Position numbers and translations under genes: made by a program | The notes under the pieces: model-generated | The model's input: the letters and a program-made list of their open reading frames with translations, nothing else | The model's database searches: none | What the model was told of the DNA's origin: nothing | In this document: positions 50,090-56,281 of the stretch, one piece after another | How positions within the stretch are numbered: position 1 is the stretch's first letter | Layout of the letters: each line of letters opens with the position of its first letter | Assembly: GCA_013359265.1 (NCBI GenBank) | Contig: JABWCD010000015.1 | Location: 40,329-104,328, forward strand | Origin: Candidatus Hydrogenedentota bacterium | Lineage (GTDB): Bacteria > Hydrogenedentota > Hydrogenedentia > Hydrogenedentales > SLHB01 | Direction of reading: 5' to 3' | DNA: 64,000 nucleotides

Positions 50090-53000
50090 ATGAGCGGACC
50101 TAACACCGGTAATCCGGCGAGCGGTGGCTCATCGCCGGTTCCTCGTTTCATCGACCAAGACGAGATAGACGCAGCCTTGGCGCAGGCGCAGTCGGTGACC
50201 AAGTCAGCCCCACCGCCCGGCAACGTGAAGCTTAGGCCCGAGGACGTCCCTGCCCCGCCACCGTTCGTGCCCGGAAATGACCTCGGCCTCTTGTCCCAGA
50301 ACGAGATCGACGCGGTACTGCATGGTCAAAAGTCGGGATCGCAATCCTCGACGCAGCCGCCGCAGGAATCCCAGGCTGTTGACCAGTCGGAGATCGACCG
50401 GCTTTTGGCAGCAGCCGAAGCGGACCCGACAAACTTCGCTGCCGCCGAACAGGCATTGCGAAAAGTCGAACAGGCCGATATCGACGCCTTGGCCGCGTCG
50501 GGCAACGCAGCGGATGCGTTGGGCGACGACACCCCGCTGGCGGGTATGGACCAGAACAATGCCACTCTGACTCAATCGGAATTGGACAAGCTGATTTCCG
50601 GTGGCGAACCGGAACAGCAATTGGGCGGCGGCGAACTGGACGCCGTGCTGTCGCCCATCGAACCGGTCGATCCGTCTGAGGCGGCAATTAGCGTGGATGC
50701 CGCGCCCGTAACGCTGGGGCAAGCCGAGCTGGAGGCCCTGCTTGCTGCGCACCCGATGGAGCGGGCCGAACCCGTCGCGCCACTACCCATCGCGACGCGG
50801 ACGGATGAAGACGACCCCGTCGAACGTGCGGCGCGCGAGAACGCGCAGGCGAACGTTGGCCTTGAGAACCTTGCCGCCGCCGTGCCGGACCCGACGGCAG
50901 GCGAACAGCCGCTCGCGCAAGACTTGATCGATTCGCTCTTGGCGCAGGCTGCGCAGGCCGCGGCGACGCCGGAAGCGCCACCCAAGGCCGCATCGGCCCC
51001 GCAAGGCGTGGACCTGAAACAAGGCGAGGCCGAGGCCGTCGCGCTTTCGGACGACGATTTTGCCGATTTAGGCATCTCGATGCCGACTCCGCAAGTGTCG
51101 CTCGTCAGTGAGCCGGCCGACGAGGCGCGGGAGCCGGCAGAAGACGCCTCTCCCGTCGTGCAACGGCGGCTCAATCGCGATGCAAAGTTCCCCGCGAAGG
51201 TCGCGGCGTCCATCGCGGCCGCGCTTGTGGTGGGAACGGGTACCTTTGCGTACTTATGGTCACAGCGGGCCACTCCGGAAACACTCGAAAAACCGGCCGC
51301 CGAAGTGGAACACCGCGACCTGGAAGAAGTTATTGCAGTCGCGCGCGAGTTGATGGGAAAGGGGGAATACGTGAGCGCGATGCGGGAGCTGGGCGCGGCA
51401 ATCCGCCATGCGGAACCGGGTCTGCTGCTGAACGAAGCGCGCTTCTTGCACGTCGAGGCCGGCTATCGATCGTTGCCGCCAAAGCCAAAAGCGGTCGATA
51501 TCGAGACGGTGCTGAAGAACATCGAGGACGTCATCGCGCTCGCGCCAAAGTACTCCCGCAACCCGGAGGCGCTCGAGTGGAAGGCGGAGTTGTACGAACG
51601 AACCGGCGCCATCACCACGGCGCGGGACACGTATGAGCGCATCCTGACAAACTATCCCACCACACCAAACCGGGACCACACGCTTCTGCAGCTCGCGCGG
51701 CTCGCGTTTCAATTGAATTACTTCGATGACGCTGAGAAGGCCTTGACGAGCATCGTTCAGGATTTTCCCGATTCGCCGCACAAGAGCGAAGCGCAGATGA
51801 TGCTCGCGAAGTGCTACGAGTCCACGGGCCGCGTGGCCGACGCAATCGCGACGTATGCGACGGTAGCGGCGGAGCGGACGGAATCGCGTGTCGGCGCGGA
51901 AGCGGCACTTGCGCTTTCGCGAATTGCCGATGCGTCGGGCGACACGCCAGGCGCGATCCGGGCGCTCGAGAACCGGCTGCAAACGTCGACAACAGTGGAC
52001 GGCAATGACGCCGTGTACGTGGAGCTCGCAAAGGCCTACCGCAAGGCCGGCAAACCGGCTGACGCCGTGCGCGTGGCGCGTGAGTTGCTCAATTTCTTTC
52101 CTGATAGTTCGCGCGTGCCTGAGGCTGTTGTCGAGCTGACCAAGGCCATGGACGAGAGCGGCGATTCCCGGCAGGCGATTGACCTGGCGCAACAGGCGGC
52201 GGAGCGTTTCGACAAGAACGCGGCCGTCGCAAAGAACCGCGCGCTGATGCTGAGCAAGACGAACGATACGCGGGCCGCGGCCGAAGCGCTGGTGAAGGCC
52301 GACGAACTGGGCGCGAACGATCCCGAGGTCTTGCTCGACGCCGGCCGGAAGTATTCGGAACTTGCGGAAAAAGAAAAAGCGCTGGAAGTATTCAACAAGG
52401 TCATCGAGAAATATCCGGACACTGAGCAGGCAGTCGAGGCAGGCGTCGCATTGGGCCGCGAGCAGTATGCGGCCGGCGATATCGCGGGCGCGATCGATCG
52501 GCTTATGGCGCTGACCGAAGCGCCCAATGCGTCCAGCAAGCAACTCGCCATTCAGTCCGCCCTCGGCGATATCTATACGGACCTCGGCCTGAAGAAGCGT
52601 GCGACCGCCGCGTACGAACAGGTCGCCTCGCTCGCAACCGATCCGGAAACGCTCGCGCACGCGGCGACTGTGTTGCTCGAAAATGGGGCGATCGGTTCCG
52701 CGCTTCCCGTGATTCGTAAAGTGGACACGGCACGGTTGCCGTCAAAAGCCGGTTTCGATTTTCTCATGGCGCAAGGCCGCGCCATGCTTGACCTCGACGC
52801 GGTGGCGGCGCTCGACAAGATGCAACAGGCGTTCGAGCTGTATCCCGTCGAGCGGACACCCGAAGACTTCGAGTACCTCGTGCGGGCCTGCCTCGAAACC
52901 GGCAAGACGGCGCACGCGCGCATCCTCGTGAGCGATTTCGACACCTACGTCGAGAAACACCCGGAAGAACGAGAGCGATTGCAGCGAACCGCCGCGCTGT

Positions 53001-54925: not shown

Positions 54926-56281
54926 ATGGCTAAGGCAGCAATTCTGGTAATCGACGACGAGTCGTTGATGCGCGAGTACGTGCAGGAAGCGCTTGTCCGC
55001 GCGGGGCACGACGTATCGATCGCATCGAACGGCCGCGAAGGCATCGAGATGGCCGGCGCGAAGACGTTCGATGTCGTCGTGTCGGACCTGAAGATGCAGC
55101 CAATCGACGGTATCGAAGTGTTGCGGGCCATCCGCGCGCATTCGCCCGCGACGGCGTGCATCATTATGACAGCCTACGGGACGGTGGACACTGCGGTAAC
55201 CGCGCTGAAAGAAGGCGCGTTCGACTACATCATGAAACCGTTCACGCCCGACGAGTTGGAACTCGCCGTGTCGCGCGCGCTCGAGCGCGAGCGTATCGCG
55301 CAGGAAAACCAGTACCTGCGCGCGGAACTGAACAGGCGTTATGATTTCTCCGCGATGGTCGGATCGAGCGAGGCGATGCAGCGCGTGTACGAGCAAGTCC
55401 AGAAGGTCGCGGACAGCCGAGCGACAATCCTCATCCGAGGAGAGAGCGGGACCGGCAAAGAACTCGTGGCACGCGCGATCCACTTCGGCGGCGCGCGGCG
55501 CGATCGTCCGTTCATCAAGGTTAACTGCGCGGCGCTGTCCGCGGGGCTTCTCGAAAGCGAACTGTTCGGACACGAGAAGGGATCGTTTACCGGCGCGCAC
55601 GAACGCAAGATAGGCCGGTTCCAGTTGGCCGATTCCGGCACGTTGTTGCTGGACGAGGTCAGCGAGATCGGGATAGAGCTGCAACCCAAGCTGCTGCGCG
55701 CGCTGCAGGAACGCGAGTTCGAGCGCGTCGGCGGCAGCACGCCGATCAAGGTGGATACGCGCATCATCTGCACGACCAACCGAAATCTCGAGGAGTCCGT
55801 CGAAAAAGGCCAGTTGCGCGAAGACCTGTTCTTCCGGCTCAACGTAATCCCCATTGTGTTGCCGCCGCTGCGCGAGCGCAAAGAAGATATCCCCGCGCTG
55901 ATGGACTGCTTCCTCAAGCGTTACGTGCAGGAGAACAACCGGCCCATTACCGGCTTCGCGCCGGAGTCAGTCGAATTGTTTATCGAATACGACTGGCCCG
56001 GCAACGTGCGTGAGTTGCAGAACACGGTCGAACGCGCGGTGGTACTGTCGTCCGCGCGCGTGCTCGGACCGGAACATTTCTCGTTCGGACCTTCCCGCGC
56101 CAATCGCGGTAACGGCAACAGCGTGACCGTGCGCATTGGGACGACGGTTGGCGACATGGAGAAGGAGCTGATTCTGCGCACGCTTGAAAAGTACAACCAA
56201 AACCGCACGCACGCGGCGGAGGTGCTTGGCATATCGGTGCGCACCCTGCGCAACAAGCTGAAGGAATACCAGGGGCGTTAA
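54926..56281 (+). CDS. Sigma-54-dependent response regulator (NtrC family enhancer-binding protein)
   Basis: Receiver (VIDDE...VVVSDLKMQ). AAA+ core GESGTGKE, ESELFGHEKGSFTGA (GAFTGA), R-finger. C-terminal Fis-type HTH. The ATG at 54926 is preceded by GGAG. The listed ORF from 54707 is an upstream artefact. Confidence 0.9.
   Translation: MAKAAILVIDDESLMREYVQEALVRAGHDVSIASNGREGIEMAGAKTFDVVVSDLKMQPIDGIEVLRAIRAHSPATACIIMTAYGTVDTAVTALKEGAFDYIMKPFTPDELELAVSRALERERIAQENQYLRAELNRRYDFSAMVGSSEAMQRVYEQVQKVADSRATILIRGESGTGKELVARAIHFGGARRDRPFIKVNCAALSAGLLESELFGHEKGSFTGAHERKIGRFQLADSGTLLLDEVSEIGIELQPKLLRALQEREFERVGGSTPIKVDTRIICTTNRNLEESVEKGQLREDLFFRLNVIPIVLPPLRERKEDIPALMDCFLKRYVQENNRPITGFAPESVELFIEYDWPGNVRELQNTVERAVVLSSARVLGPEHFSFGPSRANRGNGNSVTVRIGTTVGDMEKELILRTLEKYNQNRTHAAEVLGISVRTLRNKLKEYQGR

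What the first reader, a model, noticed from the sequence alone, without database searches (positions are those of the whole stretch)
50090..56281. Four-gene operon: EIDAL-motif/TPR membrane protein - small helical protein - PAS histidine kinase - sigma54 enhancer-binding response regulator
Seen in sequence: four same-strand genes with coupled junctions. TAG-ATG at 53326/53327. The kinase ORF overlaps the small protein. There are 2 nt between the kinase stop and the regulator ATG, with a GGAG RBS.

The regulator has the receiver + AAA+ (GAFTGA-like GSFTGA) + Fis-HTH architecture of NtrC-family sigma-54 activators. The kinase is cytoplasmic with a PAS domain.

Inference: a dedicated signalling module whose input may be the upstream 1079-aa TPR protein and its small partner. 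This would be a four-component system rather than a stand-alone two-component pair. No flagellar, nitrogen or hydrogenase target genes are nearby, so the regulon is unknown.
Basis: partly seen in the sequence, partly recalled or inferred. Interest (0 to 1): 0.6.

Follow-up and report, generated by a model that had tools for sequence, protein, structure and literature searches.

The report
Flagellar sigma-54 regulatory operon with FliM-motif protein
The four genes form a real, deeply conserved operon of the uncultured phylum Hydrogenedentota that most likely switches on flagellum genes, and it pairs an ordinary kinase and regulator with two unusual partners: a membrane protein carrying about eight copies of a flagellar-switch docking motif, and a relative of a flagellar export chaperone.

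Summary
Four tightly coupled + strand genes (50090-56281) end in a terminator hairpin. The window comes from a Candidatus Hydrogenedentota MAG. The same gene order recurs in at least nine loci, with the regulator 71% but the small protein only about 34% identical, and with different flanks.

- The "EIDAL motif" is an array of 7-8 FliM/FliY-type motifs (L-L-S/D-Q-x-E-I/L-D-A-L-L) in a disordered cytoplasmic tail, followed by one transmembrane helix and a periplasmic TPR solenoid.
- In two related lineages the module sits directly upstream of flgB-flgC-fliE-fliF-fliG-fliH-fliI.
- All five Hydrogenedentota flgB operons examined carry a near-consensus sigma-54 promoter.

Best reading: a flagellum-associated sigma-54 two-component system of the FlrBC/FleSR/FlgSR kind with two lineage-specific accessory proteins. 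It is inferred, not shown, that these proteins feed signals to the kinase rather than serving as motor or assembly parts. Flagellar genes and rpoN could not be checked in the window's own genome. Verdict: new variant of a known kind.

The parts
49939..49967 (+). Sigma-70-type promoter candidate of the operon: TTGCTT, 17 bp, TGC-TAGCAT (-10 at 49962-49967), about 122 nt upstream of the G1 start codon
   Evidence: Block conserved in the alignment of upstream regions. The same TTGCnn-17-TGnTAnnnT arrangement sits at the same distance in L001, L002, L003 and L010 and in L018. The generic promoter scan did not call it, so it rests on conservation only.
50000..50013 (.). Near-palindromic box CACTATATATTGTG in the 5' leader; candidate operator for an unknown regulator
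   Evidence: Conserved in L002, L003 (perfect palindrome ACAATATATTGT), L010 and L018, at about -81 to -98 from the G1 start. Function not tested.
50036..50050 (.). Palindrome GGCACGGTTCGTGCC that also fits the sigma-54 pattern GG-N10-GC (2 mismatches to TGGCAC-N5-TTGC); meaning unresolved
   Evidence: L001 carries a two-sided change that keeps the palindrome (GGCATGCTTCATGCC). The element is degenerate in L003 and no counterpart was seen in the L010 upstream region. Sigma-54-like matches in the window are not above chance: 64 found against 70.7 expected.
50090..53326 (+). G1: 1078-aa single-pass inner-membrane protein with a cytoplasmic EIDAL-motif array, one transmembrane helix and a periplasmic TPR solenoid
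50147..50959 (+). G1 residues ~20-290: acidic, disordered tail with 7-8 FliM/FliY-type motifs starting at aa 23, 70, 99, 128, 162, 180, 211 and 277; family consensus L-L-[DST]-Q-x-E-[IL]-D-A-L-L-A
   Evidence: The motifs are the conserved islands of an otherwise variable region. They are enriched about 200-fold over shuffles. The AF2 model gives pLDDT < 50 here, with the predicted short helices lying mostly at the motif positions. Motif arrays are also present in L010 (8-10 copies), L011, L013, L017 and L018.
51200..51259 (+). G1 transmembrane helix (aa 371-390, VAASIAAALVVGTGTFAYLW). The basic flank RRLNRDAKFPAK lies on the N-terminal side, so the N-terminus is inferred to be cytoplasmic
   Evidence: only charge-free 20-mer; helix 369-391. 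Topology is inferred from the positive-inside rule.
51320..53296 (+). G1 residues 411-1069: TPR solenoid, inferred periplasmic
   Evidence: Many Pfam TPR families match. NCBIfam YbgF/CpoB-type repeats match in 4 stretches. AF2 pLDDT is mostly 75-94. By Foldseek, generic TPR solenoids dominate; the only bacterial hit in the top 50 is the C. jejuni flagellar periplasmic scaffold, 9hmf_K.
53327..53758 (+). G2: 143-aa cytoplasmic helical protein, FlgN-like
53727..54923 (+). G3: soluble histidine kinase (N-terminal coiled coil, PAS, HisKA with H197, HATPase_c). Start is either GTG 53727 or TTG 53769
   Evidence: It is 61% identical to the kinase in L010, which lies two genes upstream of flgB.
54926..56281 (+). 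G4: NtrC-family sigma-54 enhancer-binding response regulator (REC with D54; AAA+ with GSFTGA at 219-224; Fis-type HTH)
   Evidence: It is 71% identical over 449 aa to the regulator in L010 encoded immediately upstream of the sigma-54-promoted flgB operon.
56288..56317 (+). Intrinsic-terminator-like hairpin GCGGTCAttcgaGTGACCGC followed by GTGATTTTTC; marks the operon end and overlaps the 3' end of convergent ruvC

Best explanation
This is the flagellar sigma-54 regulatory operon of a Hydrogenedentota bacterium.

Shown or strongly supported:
- G3 and G4 are a cytoplasmic PAS kinase and an NtrC-type activator. Their close orthologues sit directly upstream of flagellar flgB operons.
- Every flgB operon examined in this phylum carries a near-consensus sigma-54 promoter.
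- G2 is FlgN-like.
- G1 carries a cytoplasmic array of the FliM/FliY 'EIDAL' motif. In model bacteria this motif is the docking site for CheY-P and for the MinD-like ATPase FlhG.

Inferred mechanism:
1. The operon is transcribed from a sigma-70-type promoter, guarded by a conserved operator-like box.
2. G3 phosphorylates G4 at D54.
3. G4~P assembles on an upstream site and opens the sigma-54 promoter of the flgB operon. That operon runs from flgB through the fliF-fliJ, fliK, flgD/E and motAB genes to at least fliP, where the fetched loci end.
4. Because this operon already includes the MS-ring, rotor and export genes, the system acts near the top of the hierarchy. It needs an input other than a finished basal body.
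5. G1 and G2 are the likely coupling devices. G1's motif array would capture FlhG, or a CheY-type receiver, at the membrane and so relieve or impose inhibition of G4. This would be analogous to the FlhG-FliM-FlrA partner switch. G1's periplasmic TPR domain would tie it to the envelope or the motor.
6. G2 would act like a free-or-loaded export chaperone, reporting export status to the kinase with which it is translationally coupled.
For: Operon anatomy and domains.

Deep synteny: the four-gene order is kept while G2 identity falls to about 30% and the flanks change. Between the window and L010 the regulator is 71%, the kinase 61% and G1 31% identical.

Adjacency to flagellar genes:
- The module lies immediately upstream of flgB-flgC-fliE-fliF-fliG-fliH-fliI(-fliJ) in L009/L010 and in L018.
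- It lies 1.9 kb from fliD-fliS in L017.

Sigma-54 promoters 44-55 nt upstream of flgB in 5 of 5 loci:
- L010 TGGCATGGCGATTGCA
- L014 CGGCACGCGGGTTGCT
- L015 TGGCACAGGAGTTGCT
- L016 TGGCACAGGCGTTGCT
- L018 TGGCATAGCGGTTGCT

One assembly (GCA_045863295.1) holds both an unlinked module (L017) and a sigma-54-promoted flgB cluster (L014). The window shows the same unlinked layout of the module.

G2 is FlgN-like by fold and by weak profile match.

The G1 motif array is statistically and evolutionarily real. It forms short helices in a disordered tail.

Literature:
- EIDAL binds CheY-P and FlhG (PMC6946799; bioRxiv 10.1101/2022.04.21.489128).
- FlhG also inhibits the sigma-54 master regulators FlrA/FleQ (PMC12826062).
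- Flagellum-associated kinases are cytoplasmic, with PAS and/or coiled-coil domains (PMC7064773).
Against: - The window has no flagellar gene, no rpoN and no convincing sigma-54 promoter.
- I could not show that the window's own genome or its closest relatives encode flagella. The FliG search lists only the best 120 hits, and none came from the window's clade.
- In most lineages sampled the module is not next to flagellar genes (L001-L003, L011, L013).
- G4's best curated family matches are AtoC/ZraR/NtrC. FlbD and FlgR score lower, and all are below their cutoffs.
- G2 scores below the Pfam FlgN gathering threshold.
- Nothing here tests binding of G1 or G2 to the kinase, the regulator, FlhG or CheY. 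No candidate upstream activator site was found in the window.
Confidence: 0.6

Rival explanations
1. The operon is flagellar, but G1 and G2 are not signalling inputs. G1 would be a structural motor accessory: a PflA/PflB-like periplasmic TPR scaffold whose cytoplasmic tail concentrates CheY-P or FlhG beside the C ring. G2 would be the ordinary FlgN export chaperone for the hook-filament junction proteins. Both would simply be co-transcribed with the two-component genes, much as fliS and other chaperone genes precede flrA-flrBC in Vibrio.
For: G2's nearest structures are true FlgN chaperones. G1's TPR domain matches YbgF/CpoB-type repeats. Its only bacterial Foldseek hit in the top 50 is the C. 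jejuni flagellar periplasmic scaffold, 9hmf_K, and PflA/PflB are TPR arrays that hold stators (PMC12222027). The EIDAL motif is best known as a motor-switch docking site (PMC6946799).
Against: The four genes stay together, with overlapping or near-abutting stop and start codons, even where every other flagellar gene is elsewhere. This fits a functional complex better than shared timing. The Foldseek match is no better than matches to unrelated eukaryotic TPR solenoids (TM about 0.2). No second FlgN was sought.
Confidence: 0.25
2. A generic four-component envelope or stress sensing system unrelated to flagella, essentially the first reader's reading. The periplasmic TPR domain senses an envelope cue, and the kinase and regulator control an unknown sigma-54 regulon. 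Proximity to flagellar genes in some relatives would be coincidental.
For: There are no flagellar genes in the window or in five of the loci sampled. The regulator and kinase score best against AtoC/AtoS and ZraR/ZraS models. TPR/YbgF-like domains are common in envelope systems.
Against: It does not explain a FlgN-like partner. It does not explain an array of the FliM/FliY motif kept across the whole family. It does not explain direct adjacency to sigma-54-promoted flgB operons in two lineages and to fliD-fliS in a third.
Confidence: 0.1
3. The window's lineage has lost flagella and the module survives as a relic or has been re-purposed.
For: The module is unlinked from flagellar genes throughout the window's clade. 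No FliG from that clade appeared among the 120 best FliG hits.
Against: All four proteins are intact. G1, G2 and the motif array are conserved at 58-88% identity across the window's clade, which suggests purifying selection. The FliG list is truncated at about 68% identity, so absence from it means little. An unlinked module coexists with a full flagellar cluster in GCA_045863295.1.
Confidence: 0.05

Closest known systems
Flagellum-associated sigma-54 two-component systems FlrBC (Vibrio), FleSR (Pseudomonas) and FlgSR (Campylobacter/Helicobacter)
   Same: A soluble kinase with PAS and/or coiled-coil domains and no membrane segment. A REC-AAA+-HTH sigma-54 activator. Genes placed directly upstream of the basal-body operon in some genomes. 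Sigma-54 promoters on rod and basal-body genes (PMC7064773, PMC3760246).
   Different: Here the pair is always preceded by two extra, translationally coupled genes (G1, G2) that have no counterpart in those systems. The sigma-54 target operon already contains fliF, fliG and fliHIJ, so the 'finished MS ring/export gate' checkpoint signal proposed for FlgS, FlrB and FleS cannot be the sole input. No FlrA/FleQ-type master regulator gene lies beside the module in the loci fetched. Sequence matches to curated FlgR and FlbD models are below cutoff.
FlhG-FliM(EIDAL)-FlrA/FleQ partner switch of polar flagellates
   Same: It links the EIDAL docking motif, a MinD-like ATPase and a sigma-54 flagellar activator (PMC12826062; bioRxiv 10.1101/2022.04.21.489128). 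The window encodes an EIDAL-motif protein and a sigma-54 activator in one operon.
   Different: The motif is not on FliM. It is present in 7-8 copies on a membrane-anchored TPR protein. The activator is a phosphorylatable response regulator, not FlrA/FleQ. FlhG was not seen in any fetched locus, so its involvement is a hypothesis.
FlgN (Pfam PF05130), export chaperone of FlgK/FlgL
   Same: Size of about 140 aa, an all-helical fold, FlgN as the best structural matches, and weak profile matches in a quarter of the family.
   Different: It scores below the Pfam gathering threshold. It is encoded between a membrane protein and a kinase rather than with flgM or flgK/L. It forms its own family of 241 sequence clusters; every member whose source names an organism is from Hydrogenedentota.
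FlbD-FliX of Caulobacter
   Same: A small partner protein of about 144 aa modulates a sigma-54 flagellar activator by direct binding, coupling assembly to transcription (PMC3096577).
   Different: FlbD lacks a cognate kinase in that scheme. No sequence comparison of FliX with G2 was run. The G4 match to the FlbD model is 390 bits against a cutoff of 750.
PflA/PflB periplasmic TPR scaffold of the Campylobacter/Helicobacter motors; HubP/FimV polar hubs
   Same: PflA and PflB are long periplasmic TPR arrays in a flagellar context (PMC12222027). From my own knowledge, PflB is anchored in the inner membrane and HubP/FimV have an acidic repetitive cytoplasmic region that recruits ParA/MinD-type ATPases, including FlhG.
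   Different: There is no detectable sequence homology. The Foldseek score is no better than for generic TPR proteins. G1 has no LysM domain. Its topology is the reverse of HubP: the repeats are N-terminal and cytoplasmic, and the TPR domain is periplasmic.

Membership tests
NtrC-family sigma-54 enhancer-binding response regulator (G4) | Receiver domain with the phospho-acceptor Asp and acidic pocket | tested here: met
   PF00072 E 1.1e-29. D10, D11, D54, T82 and K104 read from the sequence.
NtrC-family sigma-54 enhancer-binding response regulator (G4) | AAA+ sigma-54 interaction domain with Walker A/B and the GAFTGA loop | tested here: met
   PF00158 E 8.3e-70. GESGTGK at 172-178 and D243/E244. 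The loop reads GSFTGA (219-224), an A-to-S variant that is identical in the L010 orthologue.
NtrC-family sigma-54 enhancer-binding response regulator (G4) | C-terminal Fis-type HTH | tested here: met
   PF02954 E 2.4e-13.
Flagellum-associated sigma-54 TCS (FlrBC/FleSR/FlgSR kind) | Kinase is cytoplasmic (no transmembrane segment) with PAS and/or coiled-coil sensor region | tested here: met
   PAS + HisKA + HATPase_c; the translated sequence shows no hydrophobic segment. The N-terminal 65 aa are heptad-like and conserved in L010. Criterion from PMC7064773.
Flagellum-associated sigma-54 TCS (FlrBC/FleSR/FlgSR kind) | Genomic association with flagellar genes | tested here: inconclusive
   Not met in the window or its clade. 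Met for orthologous modules in L009/L010 and L018 (flgB operon immediately downstream) and in L017 (fliD-fliS 1.9 kb away).
Flagellum-associated sigma-54 TCS (FlrBC/FleSR/FlgSR kind) | Sigma-54 promoters on rod/hook/basal-body genes | tested here: inconclusive
   Met in 5 of 5 Hydrogenedentota flgB operons. The flgB operon of the window's own genome was not available.
Flagellum-associated sigma-54 TCS (FlrBC/FleSR/FlgSR kind) | The regulator activates flagellar genes, and its activity depends on flagellar assembly state | not testable with these tools
   Needs genetics or a reporter assay.
Flagellum-associated sigma-54 TCS (FlrBC/FleSR/FlgSR kind) | rpoN present in the genome | not tested
   Only 64 kb of this genome is held, and the ORFs scanned with Pfam contain no rpoN. 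Sigma-54 use in the phylum is implied by the flgB promoters.
FlgN (PF05130) | Profile score at or above the Pfam gathering threshold | tested here: not met
   19.1 bits against 30.5. Of 53 relatives, 13 match at E <= 0.01, best 5.3e-7.
FlgN (PF05130) | FlgN fold | tested here: met
FlgN (PF05130) | Binds FlgK/FlgL and FlhA/FliJ | not testable with these tools
   No complex prediction or experiment is available.
FliM / FliY switch proteins | N-terminal EIDAL (LSQxEIDALL) motif | tested here: met
   Seven to eight copies, for example LLSQNEIDAVL at aa 68-78. Motif definition from PMC6946799.
FliM / FliY switch proteins | CheC-like middle domain and C-terminal SPOA (FliMN_C) domain | tested here: not met
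   No such Pfam hits; only TPR families match. G1 is therefore not a FliM or FliY. It only shares their docking motif.
CpoB/YbgF (TIGR02795) | Equivalog score above cutoff together with the ~260-aa periplasmic CpoB architecture | tested here: not met
   The score of 123.5 exceeds the cutoff of 90.1, but it is summed over 4 separate TPR stretches in a 1078-aa membrane protein. The PDB CpoB match covers only residues 550-634. The architecture differs.

The most novel reading that the evidence does not exclude
G1 may be a previously undescribed kind of flagellar regulator: a membrane-anchored 'decoy array' of FliM N-terminal docking motifs. It would titrate or deliver FlhG (or CheY-P-like receivers) and in that way set the activity of the co-encoded sigma-54 response regulator. 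G2, a chaperone-like protein, would gate the kinase. Together they would give a direct physical input to a cytoplasmic flagellar kinase, whose signal has remained undefined in FleS, FlrB and FlgS. This would extend FlhG-to-transcription crosstalk beyond FlrA/FleQ and into a deep-branching phylum.
Probability: 0.25. Interest if true: 0.8.

Novelty: new variant of a known kind. Interest (0 to 1): 0.6.

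Why it matters
Flagellum-associated sigma-54 two-component systems are known, but what their soluble kinases sense is still open (PMC7064773, PMC3930126). A recent review states that it is not known whether FlhF/FlhG talk to transcription factors other than FlrA/FleQ (PMC12826062).

This module offers two dedicated, co-inherited partner proteins with recognisable flagellar signatures: a multi-copy FliM-type docking motif and a FlgN-like fold. 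That turns these questions into concrete binding tests. It also gives a first outline of flagellar gene control in Hydrogenedentota:
- a sigma-70-type promoter candidate for the regulatory operon
- sigma-54 for the flgB operon
- sigma-28 for fliD-fliS

A protein carrying 7-8 EIDAL motifs on a disordered tail has, as far as the searched literature shows, not been described. A full-text search for 'EIDAL' found it discussed only for FliM, FliN and FliY among the papers read.

Tried and rejected
- Sigma-54 promoter scan of the window (TGGCAC-N5-TTGC, up to 2 mismatches): 64 matches against 70.7 expected, so nothing above chance. The one site upstream of G1 is a palindrome and therefore ambiguous.
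- Search of the window for the TAGGAAGAAAA-type box found upstream of flgB promoters: 2 weak matches against 1.2 expected. Rejected.
- Attempt to show flagellar genes in the window's own clade. I searched with the L010 FliG and looked for the 6.6-Mb genome or for HUU46/IT36x accessions. Only the best 120 of 7971 hits are listed and none is from that clade, so the result is inconclusive.
- Genome-collection scan with the G2 profile: only 3 species representatives were found, all Hydrogenedentota. Two of them (L007, L008) are the contigs already held as L002 and L003. The HMM search of the 1.84-billion-protein representative library was needed to reach distant members.
- Sequence search of PDB with the G2 family profile: the best hit was the T. 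maritima chemoreceptor signalling domain (E 8e-6) and there was no FlgN hit. I judged this to be coiled-coil/compositional similarity.
- Sequence search of PDB with G1: only designed TPRs and CpoB.
- P0182, an apparent G2-kinase fusion: it lies on an error-rich long-read contig with many fragmented genes, and its linker and tail are low-complexity. Treated as a frameshift artefact.
- Sigma-28 promoter upstream of G1 (GCCGAT present): no -35 TAAA at the right spacing on reading the sequence. Rejected.
- A REC-peptide chimera for structure prediction was not attempted. Such sequences are not accepted, and no control run would have been possible.

Full report
**Observation.** The four + strand ORFs exist as described:
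- G1: 50090-53326, 1078 aa
- G2: 53327-53758, 143 aa
- G3: 53727-54923, 398 aa from a GTG start
- G4: 54926-56281, 451 aa

TAG is followed immediately by ATG at 53326/53327. Two nucleotides and a GGAG separate the kinase stop from the regulator ATG. The kinase/small-protein overlap holds for the GTG start. An in-frame TTG at 53769 would instead leave a 10-nt gap. A hairpin with a T-run at 56288-56317 follows the last stop, and it is the only + strand terminator-like site in the region. GC3 of 0.71-0.78 in all four frames supports coding.

**Source and conservation.** G1 and G2 are 100% identical to proteins of a Candidatus Hydrogenedentota MAG (locus tag HUU46_14555 for G2).

Within the window's clade (G1 58-76% identical, G2 59-88%) the four genes stay together, preceded by a DHDPS-family gene. 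The outer flanks differ:
- ruvC/yebC in the window and in L001, a complete 6.6-Mb genome
- xanthine-dehydrogenase genes in L002
- other genes in L003

A profile of G2 searched against 1.84 billion representative proteins found 241 clusters at E <= 1e-3, nearly all about 146 aa. Every member whose source names an organism is from Hydrogenedentota.

Every distant member whose locus I could read has the same order: TPR protein, ~145-aa protein, PAS kinase, sigma-54 regulator. These loci are L009/L010, L011, L013, L017, L018, L019 and the error-rich L012. Stop and start codons overlap or nearly abut throughout. Between the window and L010 the regulator is 71% identical, the kinase 61%, G1 31% over its full length, and G2 about 34%. 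The module is therefore an old, co-inherited unit.

**The regulator and kinase.** G4 has a receiver domain (D10, D11, D54, T82, K104). Its sigma-54 AAA+ domain has Walker A at 172-178, D243/E244 and the loop GSFTGA at 219-224. It also has an AAA lid and a Fis-type HTH. G3 has no membrane segment. It has an N-terminal coiled coil, one PAS domain, HisKA (H197) and HATPase_c. Curated NCBIfam models give AtoC/ZraR/NtrC and AtoS/ZraS as the best matches, all below their cutoffs. FlbD (390 bits) and FlgR (324 bits) are also below theirs. Sequence alone does not assign a regulon.

**The large protein.** G1 residues 1-370 are acidic (63 D+E against 21 K+R) and carry the motif at residues 23, 70, 99, 128, 162, 180, 211 and 277. 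Examples are LLSQNEIDAVL, AVDQSEIDRLL, TLTQSELDKLI and LAQDLIDSLL.
- Six strict copies are found against 0.03 expected from shuffles (maximum 2 in 2000). The C-terminal 683 residues have none.
- The motifs are the conserved islands of an otherwise variable region.
- They recur in every family member, with 8-10 copies in L010 such as LLSQDQLDALL.
- The family consensus L-L-[DST]-Q-x-E-[IL]-D-A-L-L-A is the FliM/FliY 'EIDAL' motif. That motif is known to bind CheY-P and the MinD-like ATPase FlhG (PMC6946799; bioRxiv 10.1101/2022.04.21.489128).

The AF2 model shows this tail as disordered, and the short helices it predicts there lie mostly at the motif positions. It then shows a transmembrane helix (369-391) and a confident TPR solenoid (411-1069, pLDDT mostly 75-94). 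The basic residues lie on the N-terminal side of the helix, so I infer that the motif array is cytoplasmic and the TPR domain periplasmic.

The TPR part matches YbgF/CpoB-type repeats and, by Foldseek, generic long TPR solenoids. The only bacterial entry in the top 50 is the C. jejuni flagellar periplasmic scaffold (9hmf_K, rank 2, TM about 0.2). That is a lead, not evidence of homology.

**Link to flagella.**
- In L009/L010, and independently in L018, the module is followed at once by flgB-flgC-fliE-fliF-fliG-fliH-fliI(-fliJ).
- In L017 it lies 1.9 kb upstream of fliD-fliS. These carry a textbook sigma-28 promoter, TAAAGTTT-N11-GCCGATAA.
- I fetched three further Hydrogenedentota flagellar clusters through FliG (L014-L016).
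- All five flgB genes are preceded, 44-55 nt upstream, by a near-consensus sigma-54 promoter: TGGCATGGCGATTGCA, CGGCACGCGGGTTGCT, TGGCACAGGAGTTGCT, TGGCACAGGCGTTGCT and TGGCATAGCGGTTGCT.
- In four of the five, a TAGGAAGAAAA-like box lies 105-118 nt further upstream (not checked in L018).

The phylum's basal-body operon therefore needs a sigma-54 activator, and the only one seen beside it is the G4 orthologue. L017 and L014 come from the same assembly (GCA_045863295.1). A genome can thus hold the module unlinked from a sigma-54-driven flgB cluster, and the window shows the same unlinked layout of the module.

**Cis elements in the window.** Upstream of G1 there are three features:
- a conserved sigma-70-type promoter candidate (TTGCTT-17-TGCTAGCAT, 49939-49967)
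- a near-palindromic box, CACTATATATTGTG (50000-50013), retained as far away as L010 and L018
- a palindrome, GGCACGGTTCGTGCC (50036-50050), which also fits GG-N10-GC and shows a two-sided compensatory change in L001

I cannot decide whether the last is a sigma-54 promoter, an operator or an RNA hairpin. Sigma-54-like matches in the window as a whole are at chance level.

**Mechanism.** The best-supported reading is a flagellum-associated sigma-54 two-component system of the FlrBC/FleSR/FlgSR kind (PMC7064773, PMC3760246). G3 phosphorylates G4, and G4~P activates the sigma-54 flgB operon.

In this phylum that operon already contains fliF, fliG and fliHIJ. The system therefore acts near the top of the hierarchy and cannot rely only on a completed MS ring and export gate as its signal. 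This gives the two extra genes a plausible role:
- I propose that the G1 motif array captures FlhG, or a CheY-type receiver, at the membrane and so modulates G4. In Shewanella, Vibrio and Pseudomonas, FlhG/FleN binds the FliM EIDAL motif and also inhibits the sigma-54 regulators FlrA/FleQ (PMC12826062).
- I propose that G2 behaves as a chaperone-like reporter of export status toward the kinase. This is conceptually like FliX acting on FlbD (PMC3096577).

Both steps are inference. Nothing here tests binding.

**Rivals.**
- The main rival keeps the flagellar assignment but makes G1 a structural motor accessory (PflA/PflB-like; PMC12222027) and G2 the ordinary FlgN, merely co-transcribed with the regulators.
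- Less likely is a non-flagellar envelope-sensing system. That does not explain the FlgN-like fold, the FliM motif array or the adjacency to flgB.
- Also less likely is a relic in a lineage that has lost flagella. Conservation of all four proteins at 58-88% identity within the clade argues against this.

**Limits.** The window contains no flagellar gene and no rpoN among the ORFs scanned with Pfam. I could not show either in the window's own genome. The FliG search lists only 120 of 7971 hits, and none is from that clade. FlhG and FliM were not seen in any fetched locus.

**Verdict.** The 'dedicated four-gene module' is supported. 'Regulon unknown' is replaced by a probable flagellar regulon. 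I rate it a new variant of a known kind. Its main point of interest is a membrane protein with a multi-copy FliM-type docking motif wired to a sigma-54 flagellar regulator.

Noticed in passing
window 50000-50013; also L002 ~905-916, L003 ~6645-6656, L010 6459-6475, L018 upstream of 6777: A near-palindromic box (CACTATATATTGTG; perfect palindrome ACAATATATTGT in L003) sits 25-35 bp downstream of the operon's sigma-70-like -10 element. It is conserved between lineages whose G1 proteins are only 31% identical. It looks like an operator for an unknown regulator of the flagellar regulatory operon.
   Followed up: partly
window 50036-50050: The palindrome GGCACGGTTCGTGCC also fits the sigma-54 GG-N10-GC spacing. 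L001 keeps the palindrome through changes on both arms (GGCATGCTTCATGCC). No counterpart was seen upstream of G1 in L010. It could be a promoter, an operator or a leader hairpin.
   Followed up: partly
L010 13004-13020, L014 6423-6440, L015 ~6462, L016 ~6770: A shared TAGGAAGAAAA(C/T)(C/T)CC-like box lies 105-118 nt upstream of the sigma-54 -24 element of four flgB promoters. It is a candidate upstream activator site for the G4-type regulator. It was not found in the window.
   Followed up: partly
L014 19559-20469, L015 20047-21011, L016 19449-20332: In three Hydrogenedentota flagellar clusters the order is motA-motB-(FliL-like gene)-fliN-fliO, with no fliM between the FliL-like gene and fliN. 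Whether FliM is encoded elsewhere, and whether it keeps its own EIDAL motif, bears on the role of G1.
   Followed up: no
L017 ~14545-14575 (upstream of fliD at 14867): A textbook sigma-28 promoter, TAAAGTTT-N11-GCCGATAA, lies ahead of fliD-fliS. Together with the flgB promoters this suggests a sigma-54 then sigma-28 flagellar hierarchy in this phylum.
   Followed up: partly
window 4032-4872: A 153-aa ORF with no family match is followed 1 nt after its stop by a stand-alone 125-aa receiver-domain protein (PF00072 E 1e-29; best curated matches are the PleD/DivK type, below cutoff). This single-domain response regulator is a possible ligand for EIDAL-type motifs, but it lies 45 kb away.
   Followed up: partly
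window ~58500-59700: A low-GC stretch (0.52 against 0.58-0.66 elsewhere) holds three - strand ORFs that were not scanned against any family library. L001 has an acetyltransferase gene at the corresponding place. It is probably a small foreign insertion.
   Followed up: no
window 48907-49821 and 49838-49862: A DHDPS-family gene always precedes the module in the window's clade (L001-L003) but not in distant relatives. It ends in a hairpin, GTTGCCGAC-N7-GTCGGCAAC, with a weak T-run.
   Followed up: partly
window 28675-31347: An 890-aa protein combines a periplasmic solute-binding domain with GAF, PAS and a SpoIIE-type PP2C phosphatase domain. It looks like a partner-switching-type sensor phosphatase.
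   Followed up: no
L012 7138-8373 (P0182): An apparent fusion of a G2-like N-terminus to the kinase. The contig is full of fragmented genes and the linker is low-complexity, so it is most likely a frameshift artefact. It still shows G2-kinase adjacency.
   Followed up: partly
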